DNA of 64,000 nt from an uncultured Pelagibacteraceae bacterium (GCA_902574735.1 CACGOY010000004.1:18678-82677), one strand, 5' to 3'; positions 7,090 to 42,108 are shown, counted from the first letter of the stretch. Program-made: numbers and translations. The notes: generated from the letters alone by a model not told the origin.

Positions 7090-7128
7090 CTAGAAGCAAT
7101 AGTCTGTTTTGCGTCTCTGAGGCGTCAA

Positions 7129-8471: not shown

Positions 8472-8473
8472 AG

Positions 8474-23202: not shown

Positions 23203-23245
23203 AAATAGCTTGATTTTTTATAGACCCAGGTATAAATAACCGGCC

Positions 23246-23764: not shown

Positions 23765-23797
23765 AAAAAAGGGCCTTGAAATTAATCAAAGCCCTTT
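23763..23797 (-). terminator. Intrinsic terminator between convergent rpoZ and SBP genes (probably bidirectional)
   Basis: Minus strand gggctttga-ttaatt-tcaaggccc followed by T8. Confidence 0.8.
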
Positions 23798-23819
23798 AAT
23801 TTAAATAATTAATAAATAA

Positions 23820-24833
23820 CTATTTTGGTAACCAACTTTTCCATTTATCAGGATTGTTGTCCAACCACTCGTTAACAACTTCTTTAACATCTCTTTTTTT
23901 GATATCTACTTCAACTAACATTTTAGCTTGGTCGATATTTTCTAATTTCATTCTTTCAAAAAAAGCTTTTGCCTCAGAATGTTCTGCTTTAGCAAAAGTA
24001 GCAGGATTTCCATAGTTCATGGTATAGTCTTTGTCCCAACCAGTTGCAGGCCATCCTTTTGTGCCACAAGTCTTCCAGTTATTTGCTTCAGTAAATGTAT
24101 CACCTTCACATGTTGCATACTCAGGAAGTTGAACACCTACCATGTCAAACTCCCCAAAGAACCAATGTGGTGACCATAGATATAATAAGAATGGCTCTTT
24201 TCTCATGTAAGCAGCTTTTGCTTCTGCAATTGCAGCAGCTTCTGTACCTAGTTCATCTGCTTGAAAATCAATCCCTAAAAGATCAAGTCTTTTTTGATCA
24301 TGACAGTTCCAACCAGCTACTGGACAACCAATTAGTCTTCCTTTACCACCTGTCTCAATAGTTGCAAATTTAGCTTTATGTTTGTTTAGGTCTCTCCAAG
24401 TTTTGATACCTAATTCATCTGCAGCATATTTTGGTATCCAATAATCTGACATACCTATAATTCCAGTAGTTCCTAAAAGGTCAACTGTTCCATCACCTTT
24501 GTAAGATTTTACTACTTTGCCATCATAAATTAAATCTTCATTAAACATTACATCATCAGCTTCAGCATAACTTGGCCAGCTCTCACAAGCAAAATCTAGC
24601 TCACCAGCTGCAATTGCTTCCCATAGACCAGTTCCTGAAGGAAATACTGTTTGTTTAATTTTATAACCCATTTCTCTCTCGAGAATTGCTACAGCAACTT
24701 CACAAGTAATTATTCCACCTGTCCAGTCTGCAATAGCAGCATGTAATCTTTTAGCAGCATTAGCTGTTCCAAAACTACCTACCATTAGCACCAAAGATAA
24801 AAATAGTGCTGATATTGTTTTTGATAACTTCAT
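23820..24833 (-). CDS. Glycine betaine/TMAO-family (ProX/TmoX-like) ABC substrate-binding protein
   Basis: Signal peptide; DWTG, ESW, KGRLIGCP.GW, YLWSPHW. Confidence 0.85.
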   Translation of the reverse strand: MKLSKTISALFLSLVLMVGSFGTANAAKRLHAAIADWTGGIITCEVAVAILEREMGYKIKQTVFPSGTGLWEAIAAGELDFACESWPSYAEADDVMFNEDLIYDGKVVKSYKGDGTVDLLGTTGIIGMSDYWIPKYAADELGIKTWRDLNKHKAKFATIETGGKGRLIGCPVAGWNCHDQKRLDLLGIDFQADELGTEAAAIAEAKAAYMRKEPFLLYLWSPHWFFGEFDMVGVQLPEYATCEGDTFTEANNWKTCGTKGWPATGWDKDYTMNYGNPATFAKAEHSEAKAFFERMKLENIDQAKMLVEVDIKKRDVKEVVNEWLDNNPDKWKSWLPK

Positions 24834-24866
24834 ATGTTTTATCCTCTTTTTTAAATTTAAAAGATT

Positions 24867-24896
24867 ATTTTAGCGCAAATATTCAGCGAATGTAAA
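24867..24896 (-). promoter_or_regulatory. Putative internal sigma70 promoter for the SBP gene
   Basis: Minus strand TTTACA-18 bp-TAAAAT, followed by an AGAGGA RBS. Confidence 0.5.
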
Positions 24897-24956
24897 CTGT
24901 ATATAATTTTAAAACTCAGTGCATTTATACCCTAAAAATGCGATCTATTGACCACT

Positions 24957-26132
24957 TTAAGGTTTATTTGGGATTGTACGGTCTATTCCTTTAACAATTT
25001 TTTTTTCATGATCAAAAAATGGTAATTTAACAACATTACAGTCATGGATTGTGCCATTAGGTAATTCTAACTTTAACTTTTTTCCAGGCCATTCTTTCGG
25101 TTCATAAAATCTCACATATCCGATTCCAAGTTTTAATGTAGGTGAGGGTACACCCGCAGTTATATGTCCAACAACATTATCACCTTCTATAACTTTACTT
25201 CCAGAAGTTGGTGTATCAGTTTCACAAGTAACACCAAACAAACATGTTCCTTTATTTTTTTTTGATAACGCTTCCCTTCCAATAAAATCACCTTTATCCA
25301 TATTTACAAAAAATTCTAAACCAGCCTCAAAGGGTGTCATAGTTGTATCAATATCAGTTAAATTCCCAAATATTCCTCCTTCAATTCTTCTTATAGTCAT
25401 TGCACGAGAGGATGATAATTCCATCCCAAAAGGCTTTCCACATTCCATAAGGTGATCCCAAAGAGCTAAGTGGTCTGTCTTATACCCATCAGAATAAATT
25501 TCAAAACCAAGCTCGTTTGTGAAACCAGTTCTTGAAACATATAAATCTTGTCCACCAAGTTTAAAAAAACCTGATCTAAAATATGGCATGCTTTCATCTA
25601 TATTTCCTTTTGATGCAGCTTTCATAATATCAATTGAAGCAGGACCTTGTATTTGTAGAACCCTTGACTTCGGATCTGATATTTTTACATCAAAATTTTC
25701 ACTATGGGCTAATAACCAATCTTCAAACGGACCGTCAGCTTGTACATACCAAAATTTATTATCATTAAATTTAAAAATTACTCCATCCATAAAAATCCCA
25801 CCTTGAGGAGTACACGCTAACGAATAATAACCCCTACCTTCTTTTATTGATGAAATTTTTCTTGTTAATATTTTTTCTAAAAAGGGAATTGCATCCTTAC
25901 CTGAAATTTCCACTGGCTTTTCTGGAACATCAAAAATTAATGCTTTCTGTCTTAGTAGCCAATACTTTTCGATTGGATCTTCACCTATTGATATTGGAAA
26001 ATATCGACCAGCATAAACGCCACGGACCATTTTAGGACTATTGGTTCTTTCAATGTAAGGAGACTCTTCAAATCTTCTAGCACTAATTTTAATGGTTTTG
26101 TTAAGATCAGATTCTTCTTGTAGATTTCCCAA
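24957..26132 (-). CDS. GcvT-family THF-dependent aminomethyl/methyltransferase (DmdA-like paralogue)
   Basis: FDVPEKPVEISGKDA, QIQGP, SRTGFTNELGFEIY, RRIEGG, TPFEAGL, DFIGREAL; N-terminal RRFEESPY resembles DmdA RRLRSTPY. Confidence 0.85.
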   Translation of the reverse strand: MGNLQEESDLNKTIKISARRFEESPYIERTNSPKMVRGVYAGRYFPISIGEDPIEKYWLLRQKALIFDVPEKPVEISGKDAIPFLEKILTRKISSIKEGRGYYSLACTPQGGIFMDGVIFKFNDNKFWYVQADGPFEDWLLAHSENFDVKISDPKSRVLQIQGPASIDIMKAASKGNIDESMPYFRSGFFKLGGQDLYVSRTGFTNELGFEIYSDGYKTDHLALWDHLMECGKPFGMELSSSRAMTIRRIEGGIFGNLTDIDTTMTPFEAGLEFFVNMDKGDFIGREALSKKNKGTCLFGVTCETDTPTSGSKVIEGDNVVGHITAGVPSPTLKLGIGYVRFYEPKEWPGKKLKLELPNGTIHDCNVVKLPFFDHEKKIVKGIDRTIPNKP

Positions 26133-26142
26133 TTTAATCTCT

Positions 26143-28473
26143 CTAATTTGTTTTTGCGTTAGATCTTAAAATTGTTGGTGGATCAAATGCAGTTAATTCT
26201 GGAAGCGTATCATTATATTTTTCGATCTCAATAAGACAAGAATGTGCAATTGGACCTTGTCCAAGTTTAGATGTGCCTTTGTCGGGTGTTAATACATTTG
26301 GATTACCATGTTTACACATACTTCCATCTTGAGTAGGATTTTCTGGATCATACCAAGCACCAGTACTCATTTGTACTACTCCCTGCATTACATCATCTGT
26401 GATTTTTATACCAGCCAAACAAGATCCTCTATCATTAAACATTTTAACTACATCTCCATTTTTTAAATTACGTTTTTTTGCATCTATAGGATTAATTTCA
26501 AGCGGCTCTCTCTCATTTATTTTAAATGACTTACTATACTTTCCATGATCCATTTGGCTGTGTAGTTTATTTTTCGGTTGATTTGATATTAAGTGAAGTG
26601 GATATTTTTTATTTACTTTGCCCAACCATTCACAAGGTTCGAACCATACTGGGTGTCCTGGACAATCATCATAATTAAAGTCAGCCACTGTTTTCGAGAA
26701 AATTTCTATTTTACCACTTGGTGTATTAAGTGGATTTTTTTTAGGATCTTCTCTAAAATCTTTCAACATTATTGTTGGTTCTGTTGGATCGCTAATTTTA
26801 AACCATTTTTGCTCTCTGAACTTTTCATATTTAGGTATCTCAATATTTGCAGCTGCTGCTCTATCAAATGTTTGTTTATAAATCCATTCTTGCCACTCAT
26901 CTTGACTTTTTCCCTCAGTAAATTTTTCCTCAATACCCATTTTTTTTGCAATATTTGCAAAAATTTCAAAATCATTTTTAGATTGTCCATAAGGTTCTAT
27001 TATTTTATCCATAGATACTACAAATGGATCCCTGGGCGTCATCATTATGTCTGTTCTCTCAAGAGGAGTAGTGCAAGGCAAAACGATATCAGATCTTTTT
27101 GCAAGCGTATTCCAGCACCATTCATTTGAAATTATTGTATCTGGTTTTTCCCAAGCTTTTATTAGTCTATTTAAGTCCTGGTGATGATGAAAAGGATTTC
27201 CACCAGCCCAATAAACTATTTTAGTATCTGGATAGACATATGAATTTCCATTAAAGTCAAATTTTTTTCCTGGGTTCAGTAAAAGATCACTAATTCGTGC
27301 AACTGGTATAAAATTCTCTATTTTATTTTCAGTTTGTGGAAATGCTGCTCCAGGTAAAACTTTAAATTGACCACCTATAAAATTAGTAGCACTATAACCA
27401 AAACCAAACCCACCTCCTGGTAATCCAATTTGACCAATCATAGAAGCAAGCATAATTGCCATCCAAAATGGTTGTTCACCATGATCTTGTCTTGTTAAGG
27501 ACCAACTAATAGATATCATACTTCTTTTTTTTACAATTTTTATTGCTAGTTCTTTAATTTTAGATGCTGAAATTTCACAAATATTTGAAGCCCATTCAGC
27601 ATTCTTTACTACGCCATCATTTTTTCCCAAAAGGTAAGGTAAAAATTTATCAAAGCCCTCTGTATATTTATTTAAGAAATTAGTATCACTATGTCCTTCA
27701 GAATAAATTGTATGAGCCATCCCTAACATTAAGGCAGTGTCTGTGTTAGGTCTTGCTGCAATCCATTCACCACTAACCTCATTAATTAAATCAGATTTAA
27801 GTGGACTAACATTTATAAACTCTATTCCTGAATTTGCAGATTCAATTAAATTTTCCTTTTGATAATGATGACCCGTCCCACCTTGAGAAATTTGACCATT
27901 TTTAATTGGAATTCCACCAAAACAGAGAAAAACTTCAGTATTTTTTTTTATAGACTCCCAACTAGTGCATGTATCAAGATAAGCACGATAACTCCCAAGA
28001 ATATGAGGGACCATAGCCTCTGCAGCAGCAAAACTGTAAGTAAATTTTGATCTAGTATATCCACCAACACAATTTAAAAATCTGTGTAATTGGCTTTGGG
28101 CATGATGAAATCTTCCTGCACTGGCCCATCCATACGAACCGCCAAATATAGAGGAGTTCCCATGTTTCTCTTTTACTCTGTTAATTTCGTTTGCGACAAG
28201 TTTCTCTGCTTTATCCCAACTAACTGCAATAAATGGTTCAACGCCTCTTAAATTATTGTTTGCCCCTGGACCTTTTTCTAGCCAACTTTTTCTAACCATT
28301 GGCTTATCGATACGTGTTGGTCCGTCTAGAACATCAACAATTCCTTGTGCAATAGGTGATGGGTCTTTATCATGTTCCCATCCAACTAGTTCCTCAACCT
28401 TACCATTTTTAACTTTAGCTCTATAAGTACCCCAATGGTTACTTGTTAAAGGCAGACCTTTATTTTTGGTCAT
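26143..28473 (-). CDS. Cytoplasmic Mo-bisPGD oxidoreductase, DMSO/TMAO/biotin-sulfoxide reductase (BisC-like) family
   Basis: SNHWG, GGSYGWASAGRFHHAQ, YS(Mo ligand)FAAA, YWAGGNPFHH, TPSGKIEI, KLHSQ, GAWYDP; no Tat RR signal. Confidence 0.9.
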   Translation of the reverse strand: MTKNKGLPLTSNHWGTYRAKVKNGKVEELVGWEHDKDPSPIAQGIVDVLDGPTRIDKPMVRKSWLEKGPGANNNLRGVEPFIAVSWDKAEKLVANEINRVKEKHGNSSIFGGSYGWASAGRFHHAQSQLHRFLNCVGGYTRSKFTYSFAAAEAMVPHILGSYRAYLDTCTSWESIKKNTEVFLCFGGIPIKNGQISQGGTGHHYQKENLIESANSGIEFINVSPLKSDLINEVSGEWIAARPNTDTALMLGMAHTIYSEGHSDTNFLNKYTEGFDKFLPYLLGKNDGVVKNAEWASNICEISASKIKELAIKIVKKRSMISISWSLTRQDHGEQPFWMAIMLASMIGQIGLPGGGFGFGYSATNFIGGQFKVLPGAAFPQTENKIENFIPVARISDLLLNPGKKFDFNGNSYVYPDTKIVYWAGGNPFHHHQDLNRLIKAWEKPDTIISNEWCWNTLAKRSDIVLPCTTPLERTDIMMTPRDPFVVSMDKIIEPYGQSKNDFEIFANIAKKMGIEEKFTEGKSQDEWQEWIYKQTFDRAAAANIEIPKYEKFREQKWFKISDPTEPTIMLKDFREDPKKNPLNTPSGKIEIFSKTVADFNYDDCPGHPVWFEPCEWLGKVNKKYPLHLISNQPKNKLHSQMDHGKYSKSFKINEREPLEINPIDAKKRNLKNGDVVKMFNDRGSCLAGIKITDDVMQGVVQMSTGAWYDPENPTQDGSMCKHGNPNVLTPDKGTSKLGQGPIAHSCLIEIEKYNDTLPELTAFDPPTILRSNAKTN

Positions 28474-30597
28474 TTATTTTTTGGCTAAACCTAATGCTAT
28501 TCTTTGTTTCTTTGTCCAAGCAAGGCTTATTCTATCGATTATAATTGCTAGAAGGACTATCCCAACACCTGCTGCCAATCCTCTTCCAGTATCAGATCTA
28601 GCTAATCCATTAAAAACCTCTAGACCTAGTCCTTTTCCACCTATAAGTGGAGTAACAATTTGCATTGCAAACGCCATAATTACAGTTTGATTAAAACCTA
28701 TTACTAAACTTGGTATAGCTAAAGGAAATTTTACCTTATTAAGAGTTTGCAATAGGGATCCACCAAAAGATCTAGAAACTTCTGAATAGGTACCAGATAC
28801 TTGAGTTAATCCGAGCGCGGTTAATCTTATTATAGGAGGTATAGAATATATTACTGTAGCCAGAACTGCAGAAACTATTCCACCTCCAAAAAACATTAAA
28901 ACTGGAATTAAATAACAAAAGTATGGAAGAGTTTGCATAGCATCTAGTACAACATCTTGAATATTTTTAAATCTTTCGCTGTAAGAGGCTATTATACCAA
29001 GAGGCACTCCTATTATAAAACATAACAATACTGAGACTAAAACCGAGGATAACGTAATCATTGATTGGGGCCATATTCCACAAGCTCCAATAAACAATAA
29101 AAGTATTATTGTAATAATTGCAAATCTTAATCCAACTGTAAAATATCCGATACTTGCAAAAACTGCTAATGTATACCACCAAGGCGTATGAGTTAAAAAA
29201 ATATCTAAAGGCCTTAACAAATTTAGATAAACAAATCCTCTTAATCCTTTAGAAAATGCAATAAAGCCTGGATCAACTGTCAAAGACTCTACAGCATTAG
29301 AAATCGGTTGTCTTATTGATAACTTCCACTCTTTAGGAAAAGTTCCTATTTCATATAAATTTGAGTCTATGAATGAAATAATAAATAAAGCTATCAATGA
29401 TGGAAACAAATAAAATCTTCCACTTATAAATTCGCCGATATCATTTGCAGTATTTTTATTGAAAATAGAAATTAAAATACTTGTGAAAGATGCAATAAAA
29501 TTTGTAATTTTAATACATATAAAGTCTAAAATTTTGCTCGTAATATCTAAAGGCATTTCCAAAATTCTTGCAATTTTATATTTTTCTAAATTTTGAGGAA
29601 GTAAATGAAATTTTTTCACATTTGATGGAAGTTTATCTTCTTTATTACTGCAAGCTTTACTAAATCTATCAAACATTATTGCCATGAATAAAATACAAAG
29701 ACCACCTTCCATTGCCCATCCGACATCAAGTCTTCTTATTGCTTGCCATACTTGTCCACCAATCCCTTCTGCACCAATAAAACATGCTAATACAACAAGA
29801 GCTAACGCCATCATAATAACTTGATTGATGCCCATCATAATACTTGGCAGTGACATAGGAATTTTAATTTTTAATAATAATTGCAATTTACTTGAACCAA
29901 ACGAAGTTGCAGACTCTACGGTTTCTTTTGAAACTTGTCGAATACCAGTGTTGGTTAATCGAATTATTGGTGGCATTGAATAAATCATTGTAGCCAATAT
30001 TGCAGGTGCCCCCCCAATACCGAAAAAAAATAATGCAGGAAATAAATAAACAAAAGCGGGCATGACCTGCATTGTGTCCAAAACAGGTTTCATAAAATTT
30101 TCAAATCTATCACTCTGAGAGCACGCTATTCCAAGTAATACTCCAAAAAATACACATAAGAAAACTGATAATCCCATCAAAGCAAGTGTTTGTAGAGATG
30201 CTTCCCACATTCCAACAGCTCCCCAAAAATAAATTACAAAGCATGAAAACAAGCCTAATCTTAGCCCACCAGCTATAAAACAAGGAAGAGTTAAAATTGC
30301 GGCGACTAAAATCCAAGGTGACTCAAGCAAAAAATCTTCTAAAAAATAATAACCAGCTTTAATGTAATTTGCTAAAATTTTTGTAATCCATCTGTAATTT
30401 TTCTTTAGATAATCTTCTCCTTCATTTACCCATGCTGTAAAAGTAAATTCATCAGTTACAACTTTAGGAAATTTTGATGGTCCGTCATTTTGACTTGAAA
30501 GAAATAAGGCTCCAATAAAAACTAATAATACCAATGAATATTTTATAATACTTTTTGTATTATTTTTATTTTCTATTGTTTTTTGGACTACATCCAT
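28474..30597 (-). CDS. Betaine-family ABC permease with two fused ProW domains
   Basis: Two LD.MQ..P.F.YL and PPIIRLT..G..QV..SFG motifs. Confidence 0.9.
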   Translation of the reverse strand: MDVVQKTIENKNNTKSIIKYSLVLLVFIGALFLSSQNDGPSKFPKVVTDEFTFTAWVNEGEDYLKKNYRWITKILANYIKAGYYFLEDFLLESPWILVAAILTLPCFIAGGLRLGLFSCFVIYFWGAVGMWEASLQTLALMGLSVFLCVFFGVLLGIACSQSDRFENFMKPVLDTMQVMPAFVYLFPALFFFGIGGAPAILATMIYSMPPIIRLTNTGIRQVSKETVESATSFGSSKLQLLLKIKIPMSLPSIMMGINQVIMMALALVVLACFIGAEGIGGQVWQAIRRLDVGWAMEGGLCILFMAIMFDRFSKACSNKEDKLPSNVKKFHLLPQNLEKYKIARILEMPLDITSKILDFICIKITNFIASFTSILISIFNKNTANDIGEFISGRFYLFPSLIALFIISFIDSNLYEIGTFPKEWKLSIRQPISNAVESLTVDPGFIAFSKGLRGFVYLNLLRPLDIFLTHTPWWYTLAVFASIGYFTVGLRFAIITIILLLFIGACGIWPQSMITLSSVLVSVLLCFIIGVPLGIIASYSERFKNIQDVVLDAMQTLPYFCYLIPVLMFFGGGIVSAVLATVIYSIPPIIRLTALGLTQVSGTYSEVSRSFGGSLLQTLNKVKFPLAIPSLVIGFNQTVIMAFAMQIVTPLIGGKGLGLEVFNGLARSDTGRGLAAGVGIVLLAIIIDRISLAWTKKQRIALGLAKK

Positions 30598-30674
30598 TGT
30601 ATCTATAAGTTAAAATATATTATTTTACATTTAAAGGAAAATATTGTCTATTTTGATCTTAATATAAAGAAATT

Positions 30675-31721
30675 ATGAGTGGTTCTTCAAAAATAACTTG
30701 TTCAAATATTTGGAAACTTTTTGGGCCTGATGAAAAAAGAGTAATGAAGGAACTGGATCCGAAATTATCAATTAAAGAAGTACAAGAGAAAACTGGACAT
30801 GTAGTTGCCGTTAAAGATGTAAGTTTTTCAATTCAAAAAGGTGAAACTTTTGTTGTAATGGGTTTGTCAGGAAGCGGAAAATCAACATTAGTAAGATGCA
30901 TTTCAAGATTAATAGAGCCAACTTCAGGAACAGTCAAAATGGATGACGTAGATGTTACGAAGATGAGTAATAGAGAGCTTCTAGATTTGAGAAGAAATAA
31001 AATGAGTATGGTTTTTCAACATTTTGGACTTTTTCCACATAGGACAGTTGTAGAAAATATTGGTTACGGCCTTGAAGTGAGGGGAAGCAAAAAAATTGAG
31101 AGAGTAGAAAAATCAATGGAAGTTTTAAAAATGGTGGGCTTAGATGGATGGCAAAACAATTATCCTCGAGAATTATCAGGCGGGATGCAACAACGGGTCG
31201 GTTTAGCAAGAGCATTGGCTGTAGATCCTGAAATTTTAATATTTGATGAGCCTTTCTCTGCACTTGACCCACTCATAAGAAGAGAAATGCAAGACGAACT
31301 ATTAAGTATTCAAGAAAAAGTAAAAAAAACTATGGTGTTTATTACTCACGACTTTTTAGAGGCAATCAAAATGGCAGATCATATTGCAATAATGAAAGAT
31401 GGAGAAGTATCACAAATAGGAACACCCGAGGAAATTGTTGCAAATCCTAAGGATCAATATGTAAAAGATTTTTGTGAGGATGTACCAAAGTATAAAGTTT
31501 TAAGTGCAGGAAAAGTAATGAGAAAAGATTGTTGTGATGATACTAAAAAACTTTATTCATCTAAATCAGATTGCATCCCTGACAATTCCAAAATTGAAAC
31601 TTTAATAGAAAAACTTGTTGATACAGATAAAAAATTTCCCGTTATTTGTTCAGAAACTGGAGACTTGCTAGGTGAAATTGACCGTTCTATTGTGTTGAAA
31701 TCAATGAGATCTGCTAGTTAA
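30675..31721 (+). CDS. Betaine-family ABC ATP-binding protein (ProV-like)
   Basis: [36 protein letters not shown]. Confidence 0.93.
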   Translation: MSGSSKITCSNIWKLFGPDEKRVMKELDPKLSIKEVQEKTGHVVAVKDVSFSIQKGETFVVMGLSGSGKSTLVRCISRLIEPTSGTVKMDDVDVTKMSNRELLDLRRNKMSMVFQHFGLFPHRTVVENIGYGLEVRGSKKIERVEKSMEVLKMVGLDGWQNNYPRELSGGMQQRVGLARALAVDPEILIFDEPFSALDPLIRREMQDELLSIQEKVKKTMVFITHDFLEAIKMADHIAIMKDGEVSQIGTPEEIVANPKDQYVKDFCEDVPKYKVLSAGKVMRKDCCDDTKKLYSSKSDCIPDNSKIETLIEKLVDTDKKFPVICSETGDLLGEIDRSIVLKSMRSAS

Positions 31722-32646
31722 TTTGTTTATTACCTTTTATACTTTTCTCATTAACTTTATCTCTCCAAATAATTATCATACCAGCTAATATTATTAAAAT
31801 AACGCCAGGAAAAAGTTGAGCCCAAGGTGCCTCATTAAAAAATATCCACCCCAATACAAATGATGATGGTATTCCTAAATATTCAAATGATGCCATTTTA
31901 CTTGCGGAGATTAATCTATAAGAATAAATAAATAAAATAGCAGCTGTACCACCAAGAATACCAGTTAGTGTCATTAAAAAAAAGTCTTGAACATTTTTGA
32001 TTTCAACATGGCCGCTGGTTATAAAAAATAATACTATTCCACCCAGTACGTTAAAAATTAATGAGTATAATTGTATTTTTGCAGTTGAATGACCTTCGGG
32101 AATAAATTTAAGTATTATAACACTGATTGCCCATGCTAATGCAGTCATAATTGGAAATATTGAATAAAAACTAAATATCTCACTGGTTGGTTTCATAATT
32201 AGAATAACACCAAAGAAACCTAAAAAAATTGCAGACCATCTATATTTACCAACTTTATCTTTCAAAAAAAATATAGATAAAATTACAATGAAAAATGGTG
32301 ATGAAAATGTCAAAGTCATTGCTGTTGCAAACTCTAAATTTATTACAGAAATAAATACAAATATATTCATTGATAAAAATGCCAAACCTCTAAAAAAACT
32401 TAAAATTAAAAATTTTTTGTCAATTTTTCGAAAAATTGAAAAATATTCTTTCGTGAATATTATTAGAAGAATTAAAGGAATAATTCCCGCTGCATTTCTA
32501 AAAACAGCTAGTTGAATAACAGAATATTCATCACCAAGAAATTTTATCACAACCATGTATAAATCTATACAAAGTATAGCCATGAGCATCGTAGTCACAG
32601 CAAGATAGGTTTTCTTCACATCTACTTTTTCAGATGATAATTTCAT
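31714..32646 (-). CDS. DMT/EamA-family transporter
   Basis: ~10 TM; FSSPFF, RWSAI..GF.GV, FEY..IP. Confidence 0.85.
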   Translation of the reverse strand: MKLSSEKVDVKKTYLAVTTMLMAILCIDLYMVVIKFLGDEYSVIQLAVFRNAAGIIPLILLIIFTKEYFSIFRKIDKKFLILSFFRGLAFLSMNIFVFISVINLEFATAMTLTFSSPFFIVILSIFFLKDKVGKYRWSAIFLGFFGVILIMKPTSEIFSFYSIFPIMTALAWAISVIILKFIPEGHSTAKIQLYSLIFNVLGGIVLFFITSGHVEIKNVQDFFLMTLTGILGGTAAILFIYSYRLISASKMASFEYLGIPSSFVLGWIFFNEAPWAQLFPGVILIILAGMIIIWRDKVNEKSIKGNKQIN

Positions 32647-32688
32647 TGTAAAAATCTTTTAAAAAATTGTATAAACCTTACAAATAAA

Positions 32689-33879
32689 ATGAGTAACTTT
32701 AAACTAAATGAATCTGATATCTTATCAAATCAAGATTGGACTTTCCCAACCAATATTGCATACGGACCCGGACGTTTAAAAGAAATTGGAACAATTTGTA
32801 ATAACTTAAATATAAAAAATCCCTTGATAGTAACTGACAAGGGAAGTCCAAAGTTGCCATTTATTTCGAATTTACAAAGTTATCTGTCTAATTCTAATGT
32901 AAAATCAGATTTATTTTTCGATATATCCCCTAATCCAAGAGAGGATGAAGTTTCAGTTGGTTGCAAAAAATTTAAAGATGGAAATCATGATGCAATTATA
33001 GCTATAGGTGGTGGAAGTGCTATGGATGGAGGTAAATTAATTTGTTTAACAGCAAATAATGATGTTCCACTTAGAGATTTTGAGTTTGAGTTAACTCCTC
33101 CAATAATAAGTAAAGATAACCCATTTCCAAAAATTATAACTATTCCTACAACTGCAGGAACAGGAGCAGAAACAGAAATTACAGCTATGGTAACTTATTT
33201 AAAAGAGGGAATGAAATTTTGCATGTGGCACCCAGATATTAGACCTTCATTAGCATTAATTGATCCAGAATTAACAATAGGACTACCCGCTAATCTAACA
33301 GCATGGACAGGTGTAGATGCATTAATTCATGGAATTGAAGGATACTGCGTTCCAGGATTTAATCCTATGTGTGATGGAGCAGCATTAGAAGGTCTATCAT
33401 TGATATCCAAATCACTTGTAACTGCCGTAGAACAACCAGATAGTATTTTAGCAAGAGGTGGAATGCATGTTGGATCTTGTTTAGCAGGAATATCATTTCT
33501 AAAAGGATTAGGTAATGTACATTCTATATCTCACGTGGTTGGTGCTGAGTACAATACACATCATGGTTTAACTAATGCAATAGTTTTACCTGTAGTTTTA
33601 CGTTTCAATTTACCTGGTATGGAGGAAAAAGTTCAAAGAATGTCTGAAGCAATGCAATATAAAGATCATTCAGTTGATGCATTCATTAAAAATATGGAAG
33701 ATTTGTTAGATAGAGTTAAAATCCCTAAAAGCTTAAGTGAATTAAATGTTCCTGAGGACAGTGCAGCAAGAATTGCAGAGAAAGCAATGAAAGATCAAGC
33801 GTATGGACAAAACCCTAAGAAAGCCTCTTTTGAAGAAATGAAAGAAATGGTTTTACAAAGTATAAAAAAAGCTCGTTAA
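32689..33879 (+). CDS. Iron-containing alcohol dehydrogenase
   Basis: GGGSAMD, PTTAGTGAE, DALIH, HSISH, HHG. Confidence 0.92.
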   Translation: MSNFKLNESDILSNQDWTFPTNIAYGPGRLKEIGTICNNLNIKNPLIVTDKGSPKLPFISNLQSYLSNSNVKSDLFFDISPNPREDEVSVGCKKFKDGNHDAIIAIGGGSAMDGGKLICLTANNDVPLRDFEFELTPPIISKDNPFPKIITIPTTAGTGAETEITAMVTYLKEGMKFCMWHPDIRPSLALIDPELTIGLPANLTAWTGVDALIHGIEGYCVPGFNPMCDGAALEGLSLISKSLVTAVEQPDSILARGGMHVGSCLAGISFLKGLGNVHSISHVVGAEYNTHHGLTNAIVLPVVLRFNLPGMEEKVQRMSEAMQYKDHSVDAFIKNMEDLLDRVKIPKSLSELNVPEDSAARIAEKAMKDQAYGQNPKKASFEEMKEMVLQSIKKAR

Positions 33880-33885
33880 GCTTTA

Positions 33886-35301
33886 ATGCTTGATCATCTA
33901 TCAGTTGAAGAAATTCAAAAAAATATTAACAACCGACAAATCTCAATTAAAGAAGTCTTAGTTTACTACTTAGAAAGAATAGAAAAATTTAATAAAGATA
34001 TTAATGCTATAGTTTTACAAAAAGATAGAGAATTATTAATTAAGGAAGCAGAACAGAAAGATAATTTAAAAAATAGCAAAAAAATTTTAAATGGTTTGCC
34101 TATAGCGATCAAAGATCTTTCTGATGTTGTTGGTTTAAAAACTACATATGGTTATGAAGGATCAAAAAATAATAGCCCTAAGAAAAATTCACTATTTGTA
34201 GACAAACTAATAGATAATGGAGCAATCATAATTGGTAAAACGAATACCACAGAATTAGGTGTTGGTGGACATACTACTAACCGTCTTTTTGGACCTACAT
34301 CTAATGTTTATAACTTTGAAAAGTCTGCAGCAGGATCGAGTGGTGGGGCAAGTTCAGCGGTTGCAGCTGGATTACTTCCATTTGCAGATGGCACTGATCA
34401 AATGGGATCTTGTAGAGGTCCAGCAGCATATGCAAATATTTATGGATATAGACCAACTCCTGGTTTGATTGCTGCTGATCGAACATATCAAAATTTTGAT
34501 ATACCTATTTTAACTACACCAGGATGTTTTGCAAAAACACCAAATGATATGGCATTTTTAATTGACGCTATTACTGGAAGTCATCCGTTAGATAATATTT
34601 CATTTGATTTAAATAGTTCATTTAGAGACGCAAAGTTTTCAGAAAAAGAATTTTCTAATTTAAAGATTGGTTGGCTATCTAATATGAATGATAAATATAT
34701 TATTGAAAAATCCATTTTAGATATATGTGAAAAAAAATTAAAAGATTTAGAAAAAAATAATCTTGAGATTGAATATTTAAAGCCAAACTTAGATACTGAT
34801 ACTTTATGGAACAGCTGGACTACCTTTAGATCTAAAAGTATTTATCAAGATACATTAAGTATGGGTATTGAAGATATAGATTCCATGACATTTCAAGCAA
34901 TTTGGGAATACAACAAAGGTAAAGATATTAAATCTGATAATTTAAAATTAGCTTTTGAACACAAAAATAGATGTACTGAGCAAGTTAATGAAATTTTTGA
35001 TAAATTTGATTTTTTAGCTTTACCTTCTGCTCAATTGTTTCCTTTTGATAAAAGCATTCAATTTCCAAGTAAAATTAACGAGACCAGTCTCGATACGTAT
35101 CATAGATGGCTAGAAGTTTTTATTATATCAAGCCTCTTGGAGCTACCAACCATAACTATTCCTGTTGGTTTTAATGAAAATGGTTTACCAATGGGAATGC
35201 AGATTATTGGTAAAAATAAAGATGACTTAAAACTATTTGCGTTTGCAAAAATCTTTGAGGAAATTTACAATAATTCAAATCATAAACCAAAATTAAACTA
35301 A
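33886..35301 (+). CDS. Amidase-signature family enzyme
   Basis: IAIKD, GKTN, AGSSGG, GTDQMGSCRGPA (Lys-Ser-Ser triad). Confidence 0.9.
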   Translation: MLDHLSVEEIQKNINNRQISIKEVLVYYLERIEKFNKDINAIVLQKDRELLIKEAEQKDNLKNSKKILNGLPIAIKDLSDVVGLKTTYGYEGSKNNSPKKNSLFVDKLIDNGAIIIGKTNTTELGVGGHTTNRLFGPTSNVYNFEKSAAGSSGGASSAVAAGLLPFADGTDQMGSCRGPAAYANIYGYRPTPGLIAADRTYQNFDIPILTTPGCFAKTPNDMAFLIDAITGSHPLDNISFDLNSSFRDAKFSEKEFSNLKIGWLSNMNDKYIIEKSILDICEKKLKDLEKNNLEIEYLKPNLDTDTLWNSWTTFRSKSIYQDTLSMGIEDIDSMTFQAIWEYNKGKDIKSDNLKLAFEHKNRCTEQVNEIFDKFDFLALPSAQLFPFDKSIQFPSKINETSLDTYHRWLEVFIISSLLELPTITIPVGFNENGLPMGMQIIGKNKDDLKLFAFAKIFEEIYNNSNHKPKLN

Positions 35302-36191
35302 TGGTAAGACATCGACATCATTTTAAAATAGCTTTTATGTTAGCAATTGCAGCCGGATCATGGGGAGTTTATTGGCTTCCACAAAGATATTTAGAGAATG
35401 GTGGCTTAACTGGGGGGTGGGGAACTATTTCTCAAATGATGATAGGTATATTATTACTAACTCCAATTTCTTTGTGGAGAAAATTTAAAGGTCGTTCGTC
35501 AGGATTAGAAATACCATTTGTTGGTTTTTTAACAGGAAGTGGTTTTATATGTTATGCCTTAAGTTTTTTATTAACTGATGTAGTACGTGCATTAATCATG
35601 TTTTACATGATACCAGTTTGGACAACAATTTTTGAAATAATTTTTTTAAAGAAAAGACCTGGGTTAGAAAGAGTTTTAACATTGGGTCTTGCTCTTGGAG
35701 GCTTATGGATTGTTTTTAGTAAATCAAATATTGTACCACTACCTCAAAATGCTGGAGACTGGTTGGCGTTAGTAGGAGGTGTTCTTTTTGGTGGTGGGCT
35801 TATACGTTTGGAAATTACCAAAACAGATGGAGTATTTCCTGTAATATTTTCTTTTTTCTTTTATGGAACAATATTTAATATTTTTGCTGGTTATATTTTA
35901 AAAGATTATCTAGGACCTGTACCACCTGCAGAGGCTTTTCTCTCTATGTTTACTTTTTTGGTTCTTATTTCAGTATTTTATTTTATTCCAACGGGCGTAA
36001 TAATAATGTGGTCACCATCAGTTCTAGGTGCTGGACTTTGTGCAATACTATATTTGAGTGAAATTGTTGTTGGAGTTGTGTCTGCTGGTATATTAACCGA
36101 TGAACCTTTTGGATGGCGAGAAATTGTTGGTAGTTCCATGATTGTGTTGGGGGGTGTTCTTGCAGTAGTGTTAGCCCCAAAAGAATCATAG
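35301..36191 (+). CDS. DMT/EamA-family transporter
   Basis: ~10 TM; WGVYW.P, FY..PVW, E.VVGV. Confidence 0.82.
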   Translation: MVRHRHHFKIAFMLAIAAGSWGVYWLPQRYLENGGLTGGWGTISQMMIGILLLTPISLWRKFKGRSSGLEIPFVGFLTGSGFICYALSFLLTDVVRALIMFYMIPVWTTIFEIIFLKKRPGLERVLTLGLALGGLWIVFSKSNIVPLPQNAGDWLALVGGVLFGGGLIRLEITKTDGVFPVIFSFFFYGTIFNIFAGYILKDYLGPVPPAEAFLSMFTFLVLISVFYFIPTGVIIMWSPSVLGAGLCAILYLSEIVVGVVSAGILTDEPFGWREIVGSSMIVLGGVLAVVLAPKES

Positions 36192-36194
36192 TAA

Positions 36195-37187
36195 ATGCTT
36201 TTCAAAGAAAAGCTAAAATCAAAAAATAAAATATTTTTAGATGGAGGAAACGGTTCTGAAATAGCAAAACTTGGAGGCGACATGAGCCCTGCGTTTTCTG
36301 CGTTAGCAACTTTAACATCACCGGATATCGTAATTAAAGTTCATGAAAATTTTATTGATGCTGGCTGTGATATAATTACTGCTAATACTTTTGCAACAAA
36401 TAGACATAATTTGGAAAGTTTAAACAAAGGTGATCAAGTACATAAATTTATCTCAAACTCAGTTAAGCTTTCTAGAAAAGCGATATCAAATACTGGAAAA
36501 GAAAATAAAATTGCAGTAGCGGGTAGCCTATCAAACTTTTTTCCTCTAAAGGAAAATGAGTTTGTTCCAAACCCAGAATTTGTACCAACCTTTAAAAAAG
36601 AGGAAGAAAATTATAAAGAAGCTGCAAAAATTTTAAAAGAATCTGGAGCAGATTTATTGGTTCTAGAAATGCTTTTGGATGTAGACCACTCTAAAATTTT
36701 ATTAAGTGCAGCTTTAGAGACTGGTTTACCAGTATGGGTTGGATTGAGTTGTTGCGATAGTAAATTTGATAATTCCGTTATTGGAAGAAATTTTAGAGCA
36801 GAGAAAGAAAAATCACTGATTTATGATGAGAATAAGTATAAAGACCAACCTAAATACTTACCTGAAGATAAAATAATTTTACTAGAGGATATAATAAAAT
36901 CACTTACGAGTTTAGGAGGTGATGTTTATGGAATAATGCACACTTGGTTTCAAGATAGCATTGGTGGTTTAAAAATATTGAAGAATAATTGGAAAGGACC
37001 AATCATGTTTTATCCTGAAATACATAAATTTGACACTAATACACATAAAGCAATAATAACTATGACAGAGGAAGAATTTTCAAACTCAATTTTAGAATTA
37101 ATAGATGATCAAATTCAAATTGTTGGAGGCTGTTGTGGAGTTAACGACAAGCATTTAAAAAGACTTATACAATCTATATCTGAGTAA
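36195..37187 (+). CDS. Homocysteine S-methyltransferase family protein
   Basis: FLDGGNGSE, H..FIDAG.DIITANT, VAGS, VGGCCG. Confidence 0.88.
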   Translation: MLFKEKLKSKNKIFLDGGNGSEIAKLGGDMSPAFSALATLTSPDIVIKVHENFIDAGCDIITANTFATNRHNLESLNKGDQVHKFISNSVKLSRKAISNTGKENKIAVAGSLSNFFPLKENEFVPNPEFVPTFKKEEENYKEAAKILKESGADLLVLEMLLDVDHSKILLSAALETGLPVWVGLSCCDSKFDNSVIGRNFRAEKEKSLIYDENKYKDQPKYLPEDKIILLEDIIKSLTSLGGDVYGIMHTWFQDSIGGLKILKNNWKGPIMFYPEIHKFDTNTHKAIITMTEEEFSNSILELIDDQIQIVGGCCGVNDKHLKRLIQSISE

Positions 37188-37305
37188 ATTAATCAATACT
37201 TCGAAATTTTTTAAAATTTAAAATTAAATTTTTTTATTGAAGTCAATTTAGTTACTATGATAGCTTTAAATATTAATAAACAAGATTATACCATTGTAAA
37301 TTTAA

Positions 37306-38166
37306 ATGAGTTCAAATAAACTTAAAGTACGAAGAAGCTTTATATTTACACCAGGTTTAAAACCAGAGATGTTTCCAAAGGCAATCGAGTCTGGGGCCGA
37401 CATGGTTTGTATAGAATTAGAAGATGGTATAGCGCTTAAGGATAAAAATGATGCAAGAAATAATACACTTAACGCTTTAAAAACGCTCAAGATTAAAGAA
37501 GATGTAGAATTGGTTGTAAGAGTTAATTGTCAAAGAACAAAACATGGATTGTTAGATTTAGAGGCCTTTGCCTCGAGTAAAATAAACATCGGTGCAATAA
37601 TGCTTCCCAAAGTAAAAACACCAGATGAAATAAAATTTATCGATGATCTGCTTACAGATTGTAATTTAGATACAGACCTTCATGTAATAATGGAAACGAA
37701 CGAGGCTTTAGAATGTATTTATGACATTGCCCATGCAAGCAAAAGAACGGTGGCATTGTATTTTGGAGGTGTTGATATGGCAGCTGAACTTAGGTGTGAG
37801 CATAAATGGGAAAATTTAGTATACGCAAGATCAAAATTAGTTCATGCAGGTGCAAGTATTGGGGTTGATGTAATAGATGTTCCATACTTAGATTTAGAAA
37901 ATATGGATGGAATGAAAAAAGAGGCAGAGCTTGCAAAAAATCTTGGTTTTACTGGCAAAGGCTCTATCCATCCTAAACAGATAGGAATTTTAAATAAGGT
38001 TTTTACACCTTCAAAAGAAGAAATTAGTCATGCAAAAAGAATTGTAGATCAATTTAACGAATCAAATACAGGTTTGGTTGTAATTGACGGCAAACTTATA
38101 GAAAAACCTGTTTTAAGAGAAATGCAAAGAAAAATATTAATTGCAGAAAAAATAAACAAAAATTAA
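37306..38166 (+). CDS. CitE/malyl-/citramalyl-CoA lyase family (CoA ester lyase)
   Basis: RRS.IFTPG, ELEDG, VRVN, MLPK, FGGVD, GKGSIHPKQI. Confidence 0.88.
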   Translation: MSSNKLKVRRSFIFTPGLKPEMFPKAIESGADMVCIELEDGIALKDKNDARNNTLNALKTLKIKEDVELVVRVNCQRTKHGLLDLEAFASSKINIGAIMLPKVKTPDEIKFIDDLLTDCNLDTDLHVIMETNEALECIYDIAHASKRTVALYFGGVDMAAELRCEHKWENLVYARSKLVHAGASIGVDVIDVPYLDLENMDGMKKEAELAKNLGFTGKGSIHPKQIGILNKVFTPSKEEISHAKRIVDQFNESNTGLVVIDGKLIEKPVLREMQRKILIAEKINKN

Positions 38167-38169
38167 TAA

Positions 38170-39336: not shown

Positions 39337-39346
39337 TTCTTAAATT

Positions 39347-40264: not shown

Positions 40265-40267
40265 TTA

Positions 40268-40651
40268 TTATTGATTATTTGTAAAAGCGCAGATTTTATT
40301 TCCATCTAAGTCACGAATGTAAGAATAGTAAACTCCAGAACCTTTAGGTCTCTCACCACCAGATCCTTCGCTAGCACCTCCTAACTTAATTCCAACATCA
40401 TGAAACTTGTCAACCAATTCTCTTGAACTTGTTTTAAATGAAATTTGACATCCATTACCAACTGTTGCCTTTTCTTTGTTAAAAGGTTTTGTTACGTAAA
40501 ATTCTATTTTTCCGTTGCTATTTTTTGGAGAATATCCAGCGCACACTTCATCATTTTCAGTTCTTTCTAAATCTAAAACTTCCAACAATTTATCATAAAA
40601 TTTAATTGACTGATCTAAATCATTTGTGCCAACCATAACATAACCAATCAT
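40268..40651 (-). CDS. VOC/glyoxalase family protein
   Basis: MIGYVMVGTND, ATVGNG, Y.RDLDGNK. Confidence 0.88.
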   Translation of the reverse strand: MIGYVMVGTNDLDQSIKFYDKLLEVLDLERTENDEVCAGYSPKNSNGKIEFYVTKPFNKEKATVGNGCQISFKTSSRELVDKFHDVGIKLGGASEGSGGERPKGSGVYYSYIRDLDGNKICAFTNNQ

Positions 40652-40652
40652 A

Positions 40653-42086: not shown

Positions 42087-42108
42087 AATTATATAGCTTA
42101 TATATTAG

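What the first reader, a model, noticed from the sequence alone, without database searches (positions are those of the whole stretch)
23820..31721. Candidate new catabolic system: betaine-type ABC importer enclosing a cytoplasmic Mo S/N-oxide reductase and a DmdA-like demethylase
Seen: one minus-strand run of double-ProW permease, then a Mo-bisPGD enzyme (0-bp gap), then a GcvT-family enzyme (10-bp gap), then a ProX/TmoX-like SBP, with the ATPase divergent. The two enzymes sit physically between the transporter subunits. Established: ProX/TmoX-type SBPs bind methylated onium compounds (betaines, TMAO, DMSP); BisC/DorA/TorA enzymes remove oxygen from S- or N-oxides; DmdA-type GcvT enzymes move an S-methyl group to THF. 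Inference: the operon imports an oxidised methyl-onium solute (for example dimethylsulfoxonium propionate, another sulfoxide/sulfoxonium, or an amine N-oxide), reduces it in the cytoplasm, then demethylates it. This differs from the known Tdm route for TMAO and from lyase cleavage of DMSOP, and could yield reduced sulfur plus C1 energy in a lineage that needs reduced sulfur. The substrate cannot be read from sequence.
Basis: partly seen in the sequence, partly recalled or inferred. Interest (0 to 1): 0.85.

Follow-up and report, generated by a model that had tools for sequence, protein, structure and literature searches.

The report
SAR11 onium importer with embedded enzymes
A rare but widely transcribed gene cassette of ocean SAR11 bacteria joins a third, uncharacterised betaine-type uptake system to a cytoplasmic molybdenum sulfoxide-type reductase and a sister of the DMSP demethylase, which points to a still unidentified methylated, probably sulfur-containing, compound that these cells harvest.

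Summary
One minus-strand run encodes a fused ProW-ProW permease, a Tat-less BisC/DorA-type molybdoenzyme (0-bp gap), a GcvT-fold enzyme (10-bp gap) and an OpuAC binding protein, with a divergent ProV. None is the known system: the same genome also holds a true TmoX-Tdm pair, a DmpX-type binding protein and a true DmdA. The module's binding protein keeps TmoX's tryptophan cage, but the TMAO-contacting Glu is Ser. The GcvT enzyme is a sister clade of DmdA. The Mo enzyme keeps Tyr114, Trp116 and Ser147.

The five genes travel together inside an 18-kb island (23.8-42.1 kb) that is present or absent among Pelagibacter genomes. It occurs in cultured strain HTCC7211 and in a second Pelagibacterales family. 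The Mo-GcvT pair also recurs in a gammaproteobacterial bet-like cluster. All four genes tested are under purifying selection. Metatranscriptome contigs bridge the gene junctions.

My best reading is uptake of a methylated or oxidised organosulfur zwitterion that is de-oxygenated and demethylated to a thioether. The substrate and the order of steps remain unknown, and DMSOP is only one candidate. This scan noted the same system before on other DNA (e1-2762922).

The parts
23768..23797 (-). Terminator-like hairpin (12-bp stem, T run) just after the SBP gene, between the convergent rpoZ and SBP genes. It marks the left edge of the island.
   Evidence: In G023 and G066 rpoZ abuts the CoA-transferase directly.
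23820..24833 (-). Periplasmic substrate-binding protein of a third, uncharacterised OpuAC/TmoX-related type. It keeps the Trp cage, but the TMAO-contacting Glu is replaced by Ser (motif G-M/L-S-D-Y).
24834..24956 (-). 123-bp spacer with a promoter-like site (24896-24867) and a weak terminator-like hairpin (24955-24940). It may give the SBP gene its own start of transcription.
   Evidence: SBP contigs are far deeper in four RNA runs, which is only a weak hint.
24957..26132 (-). GcvT-fold, THF-dependent enzyme of a sister clade to DmdA. It is inferred to be a methyltransferase.
26143..28473 (-). Cytoplasmic (no Tat leader) bis-MGD S-/N-oxide reductase of the BisC/DorA/TorZ group, with Tyr114, Trp116 and Ser147.
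28474..30597 (-). Fused double ProW-type ABC permease (707 aa, two BPD_transp_1 domains).
   Evidence: TIGR03416 430 bits, above the 363 cut-off; two stretches
30598..30674 (.). 77-bp divergent control region between the permease operon and proV, with a promoter-like site at 30650-30622(-). No riboswitch was found.
30675..31721 (+). ProV-type ABC ATPase.
   Evidence: TIGR01186 359.5 bits, above the 326.6 cut-off
31714..36191 (.). Co-inherited neighbours: EamA permease (-), GbsB-like Fe-alcohol dehydrogenase (+), amidase (+), second EamA (+).
   Evidence: Syntenic in G179, G126, G324 and G679. EamA and FeADH homologues sit beside a GcvT relative in L131.
36195..42086 (.). Rest of the island: two homocysteine S-methyltransferase paralogues, a CitE/RipC-like acyl-CoA lyase, a beta-lactamase-fold hydrolase, a VOC protein and a BADH-like aldehyde dehydrogenase.
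   Evidence: ALDH, FeADH or CitE-like homologues flank GcvT orthologues in L140, L141, L142, L143, L149, L186 and L207.

Best explanation
This is an accessory, laterally exchanged catabolic cassette of Pelagibacterales.

Uptake: a high-affinity ABC importer (new TmoX-related binding protein, fused ProW-ProW permease, ProV) takes up a methylated or oxidised zwitterionic solute. The solute is most likely organosulfur: a sulfonium, sulfoxonium or sulfoxide.

Processing in the cytoplasm: the DmdA-sister GcvT enzyme moves an S-methyl group to tetrahydrofolate, which feeds C1 oxidation for energy. The Tat-less BisC/DorA-type molybdoenzyme removes the S-bound oxygen using a cytoplasmic reductant. Both reactions lead to the same thioether acid, which can then yield reduced sulfur.

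Shown: the gene content, the linkage, the distinctness from TmoX, DmpX, DmdA and Tdm, the conservation, and presence in RNA libraries.

Inferred: the class of substrate, the direction of the Mo reaction and the methyl-transfer chemistry. The order of the two steps is open: in series either way, or two parallel entries. The alcohol and aldehyde dehydrogenases in the island suggest that an onium alcohol is also a feedstock.
For: The operon is tight, with 0-bp and 10-bp gaps.

The same order is kept at 72-95% identity in two Pelagibacterales families, although the surroundings differ. G324 has about 9 kb of other genes between rpoZ and the module, and G679 has an SDR and a BKACE gene inserted.

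The Mo enzymes that lie next to a GcvT gene form one clade, and it includes a gammaproteobacterial one (SH-aLRT 96).

The GcvT clade is sister to the DmdA group and is apart from GcvT proper, Tdm and SoxA.

The Mo enzyme has Tyr114, Trp116 and Ser147, whereas E. coli TorA lacks the Tyr. It has no Tat leader.

The SBP keeps the four-Trp cage but not the Glu that binds the TMAO oxygen (PMC8918994).

Canonical TmoX-Tdm, DmpX-type and DmdA genes lie elsewhere in the genome.

MoaA, a MobA-like gene and an FdhF-like gene are present, so the bis-MGD cofactor can be made.

dN/dS is 0.05-0.24.

RNA-library contigs from three studies bridge the ProWW/Mo junction and contigs from two studies bridge Mo/GcvT.
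Against: No substrate can be read from sequence.

Of 11 close GcvT loci with enough flank, 5 lack the Mo gene and instead carry a transporter, an alcohol or aldehyde dehydrogenase, BetI or a CitE-like lyase. The Mo enzyme may therefore be an add-on.

The link to bet-like genes points to choline-like alcohols as much as to sulfur compounds.

The Mo enzyme scores just under the curated bisC_fam cut-off (977 against 1017.55).

DMSOP averages only about 0.14 nM in seawater (PMC10686828).

Both trees are quick trees, and the sequences have skewed composition.
Confidence: 0.45

Rival explanations
1. The core pathway is catabolism of a choline-type onium alcohol or betaine: import, oxidation by alcohol and aldehyde dehydrogenases, then GcvT-type demethylation. 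The Mo enzyme is only an accessory repair or salvage enzyme (free methionine sulfoxide, biotin sulfoxide or a product sulfoxide) that became fixed in the operon.
For: GcvT orthologues at 59-70% identity sit with TmoX-like SBP transporters, FeADH, ALDH, a GMC oxidoreductase and BetI-type repressors, without Mo, in L140, L142, L144 and L186. The island holds a GbsB-like FeADH and a BADH-like ALDH. BisC-family enzymes usually stand alone.
Against: Mo is wedged between the permease and GcvT genes with 0-bp and 10-bp gaps, and this is kept across two families and a gammaproteobacterium. The Mo enzymes linked to a GcvT gene are monophyletic. In the Pelagibacter genomes searched, Mo was found only in genomes that also carry the module.
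Confidence: 0.2
2. Methionine salvage by two parallel routes. The importer takes up S-methylmethionine and methionine sulfoxide. The GcvT enzyme demethylates S-methylmethionine and the BisC-type enzyme reduces methionine sulfoxide. Both give methionine to a cell that needs reduced sulfur.
For: The known BisC activity is reduction of free Met-S-sulfoxide (established knowledge). DmdA-type chemistry works on sulfonium methyl groups, and the GcvT enzyme is the DmdA sister. Two MmuM-like homocysteine methyltransferases lie in the island.
Against: The SBP is of the OpuAC/TmoX type, not an amino-acid-binding type. The alcohol and aldehyde dehydrogenase partners and BetI regulators in other taxa do not fit amino-acid substrates.
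Confidence: 0.12
3. A second TMAO or amine-N-oxide system: import of an N-oxide and its reduction to the amine.
For: The nearest solved relative of the SBP is the TMAO-binding TmoX (4XZ6, E 5e-22). The Mo family includes TMAO reductases.
Against: The Glu that binds the TMAO oxygen is Ser in all module SBPs. The genome already has TmoX (E 5e-85 to 4XZ6) next to Tdm. The Mo enzyme has the S-oxide-type Tyr that TorA lacks. A DmdA-type methyltransferase has no known route from trimethylamine.
Confidence: 0.08
4. Organoarsenical catabolism (arsenocholine, arsenobetaine or trimethylarsine oxide), using the same onium and oxide chemistry.
For: This rests only on analogy. Betaine-type binding proteins accept arsonium analogues (my own knowledge). 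Pelagibacter oxidises methyl groups of methylated arsenic (PMC6426599). The alcohol and aldehyde dehydrogenase pair would fit arsenocholine.
Against: No arsenic gene is linked to the module. In that paper both HTCC7211 and HTCC1062 regained ATP on arsenic compounds after starvation, so the trait is not tied to the island.
Confidence: 0.05
5. The enzymes and the transporter are neighbours by chance in a variable region and do not share a substrate.
For: The locus lies in a present-or-absent island with mosaic divergence.
Against: The order is conserved, with translational-coupling distances, across lineages at 72% identity. The island is conserved in four Pelagibacter genomes and mostly in G679. 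RNA contigs bridge the junctions.
Confidence: 0.05

Closest known systems
TmoXWV importer with Tdm (TMAO uptake and demethylation; Ruegeria pomeroyi DSS-3, Pelagibacter HTCC1062; PDB 4XZ6)
   Same: It is an OpuA-type ABC importer whose OpuAC-family SBP has a four-Trp cage, and a GcvT-fold enzyme lies beside it. TmoX is the nearest solved relative of the SBP.
   Different: The SBP is only about 23% identical to this genome's own TmoX and has Ser in place of the essential Glu. The GcvT enzyme lacks Tdm's N-terminal half and belongs to another clade. A molybdoenzyme is present. The true TmoX-Tdm pair lies on another contig.
DmdA, the DMSP demethylase (P. ubique, PDB 3TFH), with the DmpXWV DMSP importer (PDB 7YLE; DmpX of HTCC7211)
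   Same: DmdA is the best solved match of the GcvT enzyme (E 1e-39), and the GcvT enzyme is the sister clade of the DmdA group. Both systems join a betaine-type importer to THF-dependent demethylation.
   Different: The DmdA model scores 167 bits against a cut-off of 410, and identity to this genome's DmdA is about 29%. The SBP matches DmpX only at E 5e-4, while another SBP of the same genome matches it at 6e-62. The published dmpXWV genes are not clustered with known DMSP catabolic genes (PMC10030565).
BisC (E. coli biotin / free methionine sulfoxide reductase) and DorA (Rhodobacter DMSO reductase)
   Same: It has the same three-domain bis-MGD fold and is about 50% identical to DorA over the full length. 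It has Tyr114, Trp116 and Ser147. Like BisC it has no Tat leader and no cytochrome or chaperone partner.
   Different: It falls in a separate clade of Tat-less proteobacterial enzymes, apart from E. coli BisC and TorZ. It scores under the curated family cut-off. It is embedded in a transporter operon, which none of 28 other alphaproteobacterial homologues showed.
betIBA and gbsAB-opu choline-to-betaine systems
   Same: In other taxa, orthologues of the GcvT enzyme (and in L149 of the Mo enzyme) sit with a BetI-type repressor, a GMC or Fe-type alcohol dehydrogenase and a BADH-like aldehyde dehydrogenase. The SAR11 island holds the FeADH and the ALDH.
   Different: Known bet and gbs systems contain no GcvT-fold enzyme and no molybdoenzyme. 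The FeADH and ALDH score below the curated GbsB and BADH cut-offs.

Membership tests
Type III DMSO-reductase family (BisC/DorA/TorA/TorZ) | Three-domain architecture: Molybdopterin_N, Molybdopterin and Molydop_binding | tested here: met
   PF18364, PF00384 and PF01568 are all above their cut-offs. Full-length alignment to 1EU1 scores 704 bits.
Type III DMSO-reductase family (BisC/DorA/TorA/TorZ) | Serine ligand to Mo (Ser147), and for S-oxide reducers the active-site Tyr114 and Trp116 | tested here: met
   The SYGW motif and Y-S147 are conserved in all module orthologues. E. coli TorA lacks the Tyr.
Type III DMSO-reductase family (BisC/DorA/TorA/TorZ) | Score above the curated NCBIfam bisC_fam (TIGR00509) cut-off | tested here: not met
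   977.4 bits against a cut-off of 1017.55. This is a near miss. In the quick tree the protein lies apart from E. coli BisC and TorZ.
BisC-type cytoplasmic subgroup | No twin-arginine leader, and no cytochrome or TorD-like partner | tested here: met
   The N-terminus MTKNKGLPLTSNHWG aligns to residue 9 of mature DorA. The neighbours are a permease and a GcvT gene.
BisC-type cytoplasmic subgroup | Reduction of biotin sulfoxide or Met-S-sulfoxide | not testable with these tools
   An enzyme assay is needed.
DmdA (DMSP demethylase) | Score above the NCBIfam NF009133 cut-off and placement inside the DmdA clade | tested here: not met
   166.9 bits against 410. It is the sister clade, not inside DmdA. 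A true DmdA (570 bits) lies elsewhere in the genome.
DmdA (DMSP demethylase) | GcvT fold: GCV_T plus GCV_T_C | tested here: met
   PF01571 at 151 bits and PF08669 at 41 bits.
Tdm (TMAO demethylase) | A protein of about 760 aa with an N-terminal metal domain and a C-terminal GcvT domain | tested here: not met
   The 391-aa protein matches only model positions 389-762. The true Tdm (1110 bits) is at G000:C7:46252-48534.
TmoX (TMAO-binding protein) | Four-Trp aromatic cage | tested here: met
   W37, W86, the W of AGWN and W220 align to W55, W102, W177 and W222 of 4XZ6.
TmoX (TMAO-binding protein) | The Glu that hydrogen-bonds the TMAO oxygen (E131 in DSS-3, E114 in HTCC1062) | tested here: not met
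   It is Ser (G-M/L-S-D-Y) in all five module orthologues, while the genome's own TmoX keeps L-E-D. Residue roles are from PMC8918994.
DmpX (DMSP-binding protein) | Close sequence relation to RnDmpX (7YLE) and DmpX of HTCC7211 | tested here: not met
   E 5e-4 to 7YLE. Another SBP of G000 gives 6e-62.
ProVWX/OpuA-type ABC importer | ProV ATPase, ProW permease and an OpuAC-family SBP | tested here: met
   TIGR01186 scores 359.5 against 326.6. TIGR03416 scores 430 against 363, in two domains. PF04069 scores 148 bits.

The most novel reading that the evidence does not exclude
Some SAR11 populations own a molybdenum-dependent reductive route. It turns oxidised organosulfur zwitterions (DMSOP, methylsulfinyl-alkanoates or a related sulfoxide or sulfoxonium compound) into a thioether, and with a new DmdA-sister demethylase into C1 energy and assimilable reduced sulfur. 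This would be an unrecognised branch of the marine sulfur cycle, and it would answer the open question of whether DMSOP can enter a demethylation pathway.
Probability: 0.3. Interest if true: 0.8.

Novelty: new variant of a known kind. Interest (0 to 1): 0.62.

Why it matters
SAR11 cells cannot reduce sulfate and live on trace organic solutes. An importer with its own de-oxygenating and demethylating enzymes would name a new nutrient for the most abundant marine heterotrophs, and a new sink for an oxidised or methylated onium compound.

The binding protein is abundant in ocean metagenomes: 364 clusters at 90% identity, some with more than 1,000 member sequences. It is also represented heavily in metatranscriptome contigs, yet it is annotated only as a generic 'glycine betaine/proline' binding protein.

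The module is present in the cultured strain HTCC7211 (WP_008543996.1), so the question can be tested directly. The module also defines a clade of cytoplasmic Mo oxidoreductases and a DmdA-sister family, neither of which has a known substrate. This bears on gene-based budgets of dmdA, tmoX and DMSO reductase.

Tried and rejected
1. Replacement of Tdm. I tested whether module-bearing genomes lack Tdm. They do not: G000, G126 and G324 all hold full-length Tdm. Rejected.

2. The SBP as the already characterised DmpX of HTCC7211 or as TmoX. Rejected: both have separate orthologues in G000.

3. Mo next to GcvT or a transporter in other Alphaproteobacteria. None of the 28 best homologues from a 400-genome class sample showed it within 1.5 kb. 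Wider flanks of four of them showed only one ALDH-Mo adjacency, in G447.

4. Riboswitch or leader. The Rfam E-value scan of 23000-33000 gave only a sub-threshold L20_leader hit over the terminator. I read it as chance.

5. The promoter and terminator scan gave no more sites than shuffles did. Only the positions are suggestive.

6. Ranking genes by RNA contig depth. The tool warns against this, so I use it only as a weak hint. Parts of the Mo gene have no cover in some runs, and I draw no conclusion from that.

7. Literature. No paper in the searched library mentions the HTCC7211 or G179 protein accessions, a SAR11 sulfoxide reductase or a DMSOP reductase. PMC6426599 and PMC3686209 had nothing on this locus.

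8. The careful Mo tree did not finish, so a quick tree was used.

9. I made no structure prediction. The tools give no pocket coordinates, so it could not have decided the ligand.

Full report
**Observation**

The window has about 30% G+C and is contig C4 of a 1.08-Mb, 76%-complete Pelagibacter-type genome.
- SBP: 23820-24833(-)
- GcvT-family gene: 24957-26132(-)
- Mo enzyme: 26143-28473(-)
- 707-aa permease: 28474-30597(-)
- ProV: 30675-31721(+)

Pfam and NCBIfam confirm the families:
- The SBP matches OpuAC.
- The GcvT-family protein matches GCV_T and GCV_T_C.
- The Mo enzyme has the three domains of a bis-MGD oxidoreductase.
- The permease has two BPD_transp_1 domains and scores above the choline/ProW permease cut-off.
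- ProV scores above its cut-off.

The permease stop and the Mo start are adjacent, reading TAA-ATG. Ten bases separate the Mo stop from the TTG start of the GcvT gene. A 123-bp spacer precedes the SBP gene. A strong hairpin with a T run follows the SBP gene.

**What each part is, and what it is not**

*Mo enzyme.* It aligns end to end with Rhodobacter DMSO reductase (704 bits). The alignment starts at residue 9 of the mature protein. Its N-terminus has no twin-arginine leader. Tyr114, Trp116 and the Mo ligand Ser147 are conserved in all orthologues. E. coli TorA lacks the Tyr. It scores 977 bits on bisC_fam, just under the 1017.55 cut-off.

*GcvT protein.* It scores far below the curated cut-offs of Tdm (179 against 1100), DmdA (167 against 410) and GcvT proper. 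Its best solved relative is DmdA of P. ubique.

*SBP.* Its best solved relative is the TMAO-binding TmoX, 4XZ6, at E 5e-22. DmpX (7YLE) matches only at E 5e-4.

The genome holds three OpuAC proteins:
- One matches DmpX at 6e-62.
- One lies next to a full-length Tdm and matches TmoX at 5e-85.
- The module SBP is only 23-25% identical to either.

The genome also has a true DmdA (570 bits), a DmdA-like paralogue (402.6 bits, next to a 410-bit cut-off) and a GcvT-like gene near the DmpX-type locus. That last gene recalls SAR11_1303 of HTCC1062 (PMC3160333). The module is therefore an extra, third system and not a variant copy of the known ones.

In the SBP alignment the four cage tryptophans of TmoX are kept. 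The Glu that hydrogen-bonds the TMAO oxygen is essential in TmoX of HTCC1062 (PMC8918994). It is Ser in all five module orthologues.

**Distribution**

- The Mo gene was found in 2 of 300 sampled genomes of the family.
- Orthologues of the GcvT gene (over 80% identity) were found in 3 of 80 near-complete genomes of the genus. The next paralogue is at 36-37%.
- The fused permease has the same restricted distribution.
- In G023 and G066, rpoZ directly abuts the CoA-transferase that sits at 42109 in the window. Window 23.8-42.1 kb is therefore an island that is present or absent.
- The whole island is syntenic in G179, G126 and G324. Most of it is syntenic in G679, a member of another family, at 60-77% identity.
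- The module keeps its order although its surroundings differ. G324 has about 9 kb of other genes between rpoZ and the SBP. G679 and its relatives have an SDR and a BKACE gene inserted between the SBP and GcvT genes.
- G126 is strain HTCC7211. Its Mo protein is EDZ59679.1 / WP_008543996.1 on a 1,456,888-bp contig.
- Close homologues are common in ocean metagenomes.

**Beyond SAR11**

The GcvT subfamily is small: 187 clusters at 50% identity reach E 1e-30 or better among 1.84 billion representatives. A scan of one genome per species returned 80 loci.

Eleven of these loci have at least 59% identity and enough upstream sequence. In six of them the Mo gene lies immediately upstream of the GcvT gene: two Pelagibacteraceae, three other low-GC Alphaproteobacteria and one gammaproteobacterial MAG, L149. 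The other five, and several more distant loci, carry instead:
- an OpuA-type transporter (L142, L144, L186, L130 and G359);
- Fe-alcohol and aldehyde dehydrogenases (L140, L142, L186; L131 has EamA and FeADH);
- or a CitE-like lyase (L141, L143, L207).

L149 reads EamA, a GMC oxidoreductase and a BetI-type repressor on one strand, and Mo, GcvT and an aldehyde dehydrogenase on the other. L144 and L186 also have BetI-type repressors. Their SBPs are TmoX-like (E 1e-47) and retain the Glu.

In a quick tree the Mo enzymes of the SAR11 modules and of L149 form one clade (SH-aLRT 96). It sits inside a larger group of Tat-less alphaproteobacterial enzymes and apart from E. coli BisC, TorZ and TorA. 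In a quick tree of GcvT-fold proteins the subfamily (support 100) is sister (93) to the DmdA group. It is apart from GcvT proper, the Tdm C-terminal half and SoxA.

None of 28 other alphaproteobacterial Mo homologues had a GcvT or transporter gene within 1.5 kb.

**Function-related evidence**

- MoaA scores above its cut-off. A MobA-like gene and an FdhF-like 925-aa molybdoenzyme are present, so the cell can make the bis-MGD cofactor (PMC3160333).
- dN/dS is 0.05-0.24 for the SBP, GcvT, Mo and permease genes against three orthologues.
- Sixteen marine metatranscriptome runs hold part of the stretch.
- In runs from four studies, contigs with at least 31 letters on each side bridge the permease/Mo junction (three studies) and the Mo/GcvT junction (two studies). 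Some have no mismatch. SBP contigs are much deeper.
- The tool's caveats apply: contigs do not prove a single transcript, DNA may be present in RNA libraries, and depth cannot rank genes.

**Mechanism**

*Shown.* A conserved cassette links a new TmoX-related importer, a cytoplasmic S-oxide-type Mo oxidoreductase and a DmdA-sister enzyme.

*Inferred from family knowledge.* Aromatic-cage SBPs bind trimethylammonium or dimethylsulfonium heads. DmdA moves a sulfonium methyl group to THF. Enzymes of the BisC/DorA type that have Tyr114 favour S-oxides, and the cytoplasmic ones need no dedicated redox partner.

*Best reading (about 0.45).* A methylated or oxidised organosulfur zwitterion is imported. 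One enzyme removes its S-methyl group and the other its S-oxygen. Both lead to a thioether acid that can give reduced sulfur, while the methyl group feeds C1 oxidation.

The order of the steps is open. It could be demethylation of a sulfoxonium to a sulfoxide that the Mo enzyme then reduces, which fits known sulfoxide-reductase chemistry better. Or there could be two parallel entries. DMSOP is one candidate, which I put at about 0.15. The field has asked whether DmdA can demethylate DMSOP, and reports an average of about 0.14 nM in seawater (PMC10686828).

*Rivals.*
- A choline-type alcohol or betaine pathway with the Mo enzyme as an accessory (0.2). The bet-like contexts favour this.
- Methionine salvage from S-methylmethionine and methionine sulfoxide (0.12).
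- A second N-oxide system (0.08). The missing Glu, the Tyr and the resident TmoX-Tdm pair disfavour this.
- Organoarsenicals (0.05).
- Chance neighbours (0.05).

**Comparison and novelty**

The system works like the TmoXWV-Tdm and DmpXWV/DmdA systems, pairing a betaine-type importer with a GcvT-fold enzyme. It fails the membership tests for TmoX, DmpX, DmdA and Tdm, and it adds a molybdoenzyme that no described osmolyte operon has. I found no paper in the searched library that describes it. It is a new variant of a known kind, built from known folds.

The scan has met it before on other DNA. The follow-up e1-2762922 reached a similar verdict. Note e1-4388447 describes a ProW-Mo-GcvT-FeADH-ALDH block elsewhere. 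My searches agree with both notes but narrow the claim 'conserved across many marine bacteria'. The Mo-GcvT pair is confined to one clade that I saw in Pelagibacterales and one gammaproteobacterium, whereas the link between GcvT and a transporter or dehydrogenase is the broad one.

**Caveats**

- The genome samples are samples, and G000 is incomplete.
- Both trees are quick trees on compositionally skewed sequences.
- Residue roles are transferred by alignment.
- No substrate can be assigned without experiments.

Noticed in passing
window 23800-42100: The whole stretch between rpoZ and the family-III CoA-transferase is an island of about 18 kb that is present or absent. In G023 and G066 the two flanking genes are adjacent. 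G213 and G141 carry other content after rpoZ. No integrase or tRNA lies at the edges.
   Followed up: partly
window 23820-30597 against L006 (G179): Divergence is mosaic. The flanking genes are 97-99% identical to G179, and Mo and GcvT are 95%. The SBP is only 77% and the permease 79%. In L148 the SBP is 92% but Mo is 77%. This suggests recombination that swaps transporter alleles within the module.
   Followed up: partly
L054 7690-9371 (G679); also L137-L139: In the second Pelagibacterales family a BKACE (beta-keto acid cleavage enzyme) gene and an SDR gene are inserted between the SBP and GcvT genes. This is the enzyme pair used for carnitine-type 3-hydroxy acids, and it hints at a 3-hydroxy onium acid such as carnitine or gonyol as a further substrate.
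   Followed up: no
G000:C7:8762-12860 (L100, L120): The genome's DmpX-type transporter locus also has a GcvT-like aminomethyltransferase about 2 kb away (452-aa ORF, DmdA model 237 bits). This recalls the SAR11_1303 arrangement described for HTCC1062. Its substrate is also unknown.
   Followed up: no
G066:C1:290573-292854 and G253:C1:880445-882726: In these two complete Pelagibacter genomes Tdm is split into two pieces, with in-frame stops in one piece. These may be pseudogenes or frameshifts.
   Followed up: no
L157 541-11891 (Rhodobacteraceae SAG AG-461-P07): The cluster holds a BetI-type repressor, EamA, a GMC oxidoreductase, a VOC protein, a GcvT relative (51%), a Rieske/VanA-type oxygenase, a PanB-like protein, a BisC-type Mo enzyme (45%) and a URO-D-like protein. 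It is a different assembly of the same themes.
   Followed up: no
L216 (G447:C54) 5740-8997: An aldehyde dehydrogenase 63% identical to the island's ALDH lies directly upstream of a BisC-type Mo enzyme (52%) in an unrelated alphaproteobacterium.
   Followed up: no
window 36195-37187 and 39347-40264: Two divergent homocysteine S-methyltransferase paralogues (about 27% identical to each other) are co-inherited with the module. Both score below the curated MmuM and BHMT cut-offs.
   Followed up: no
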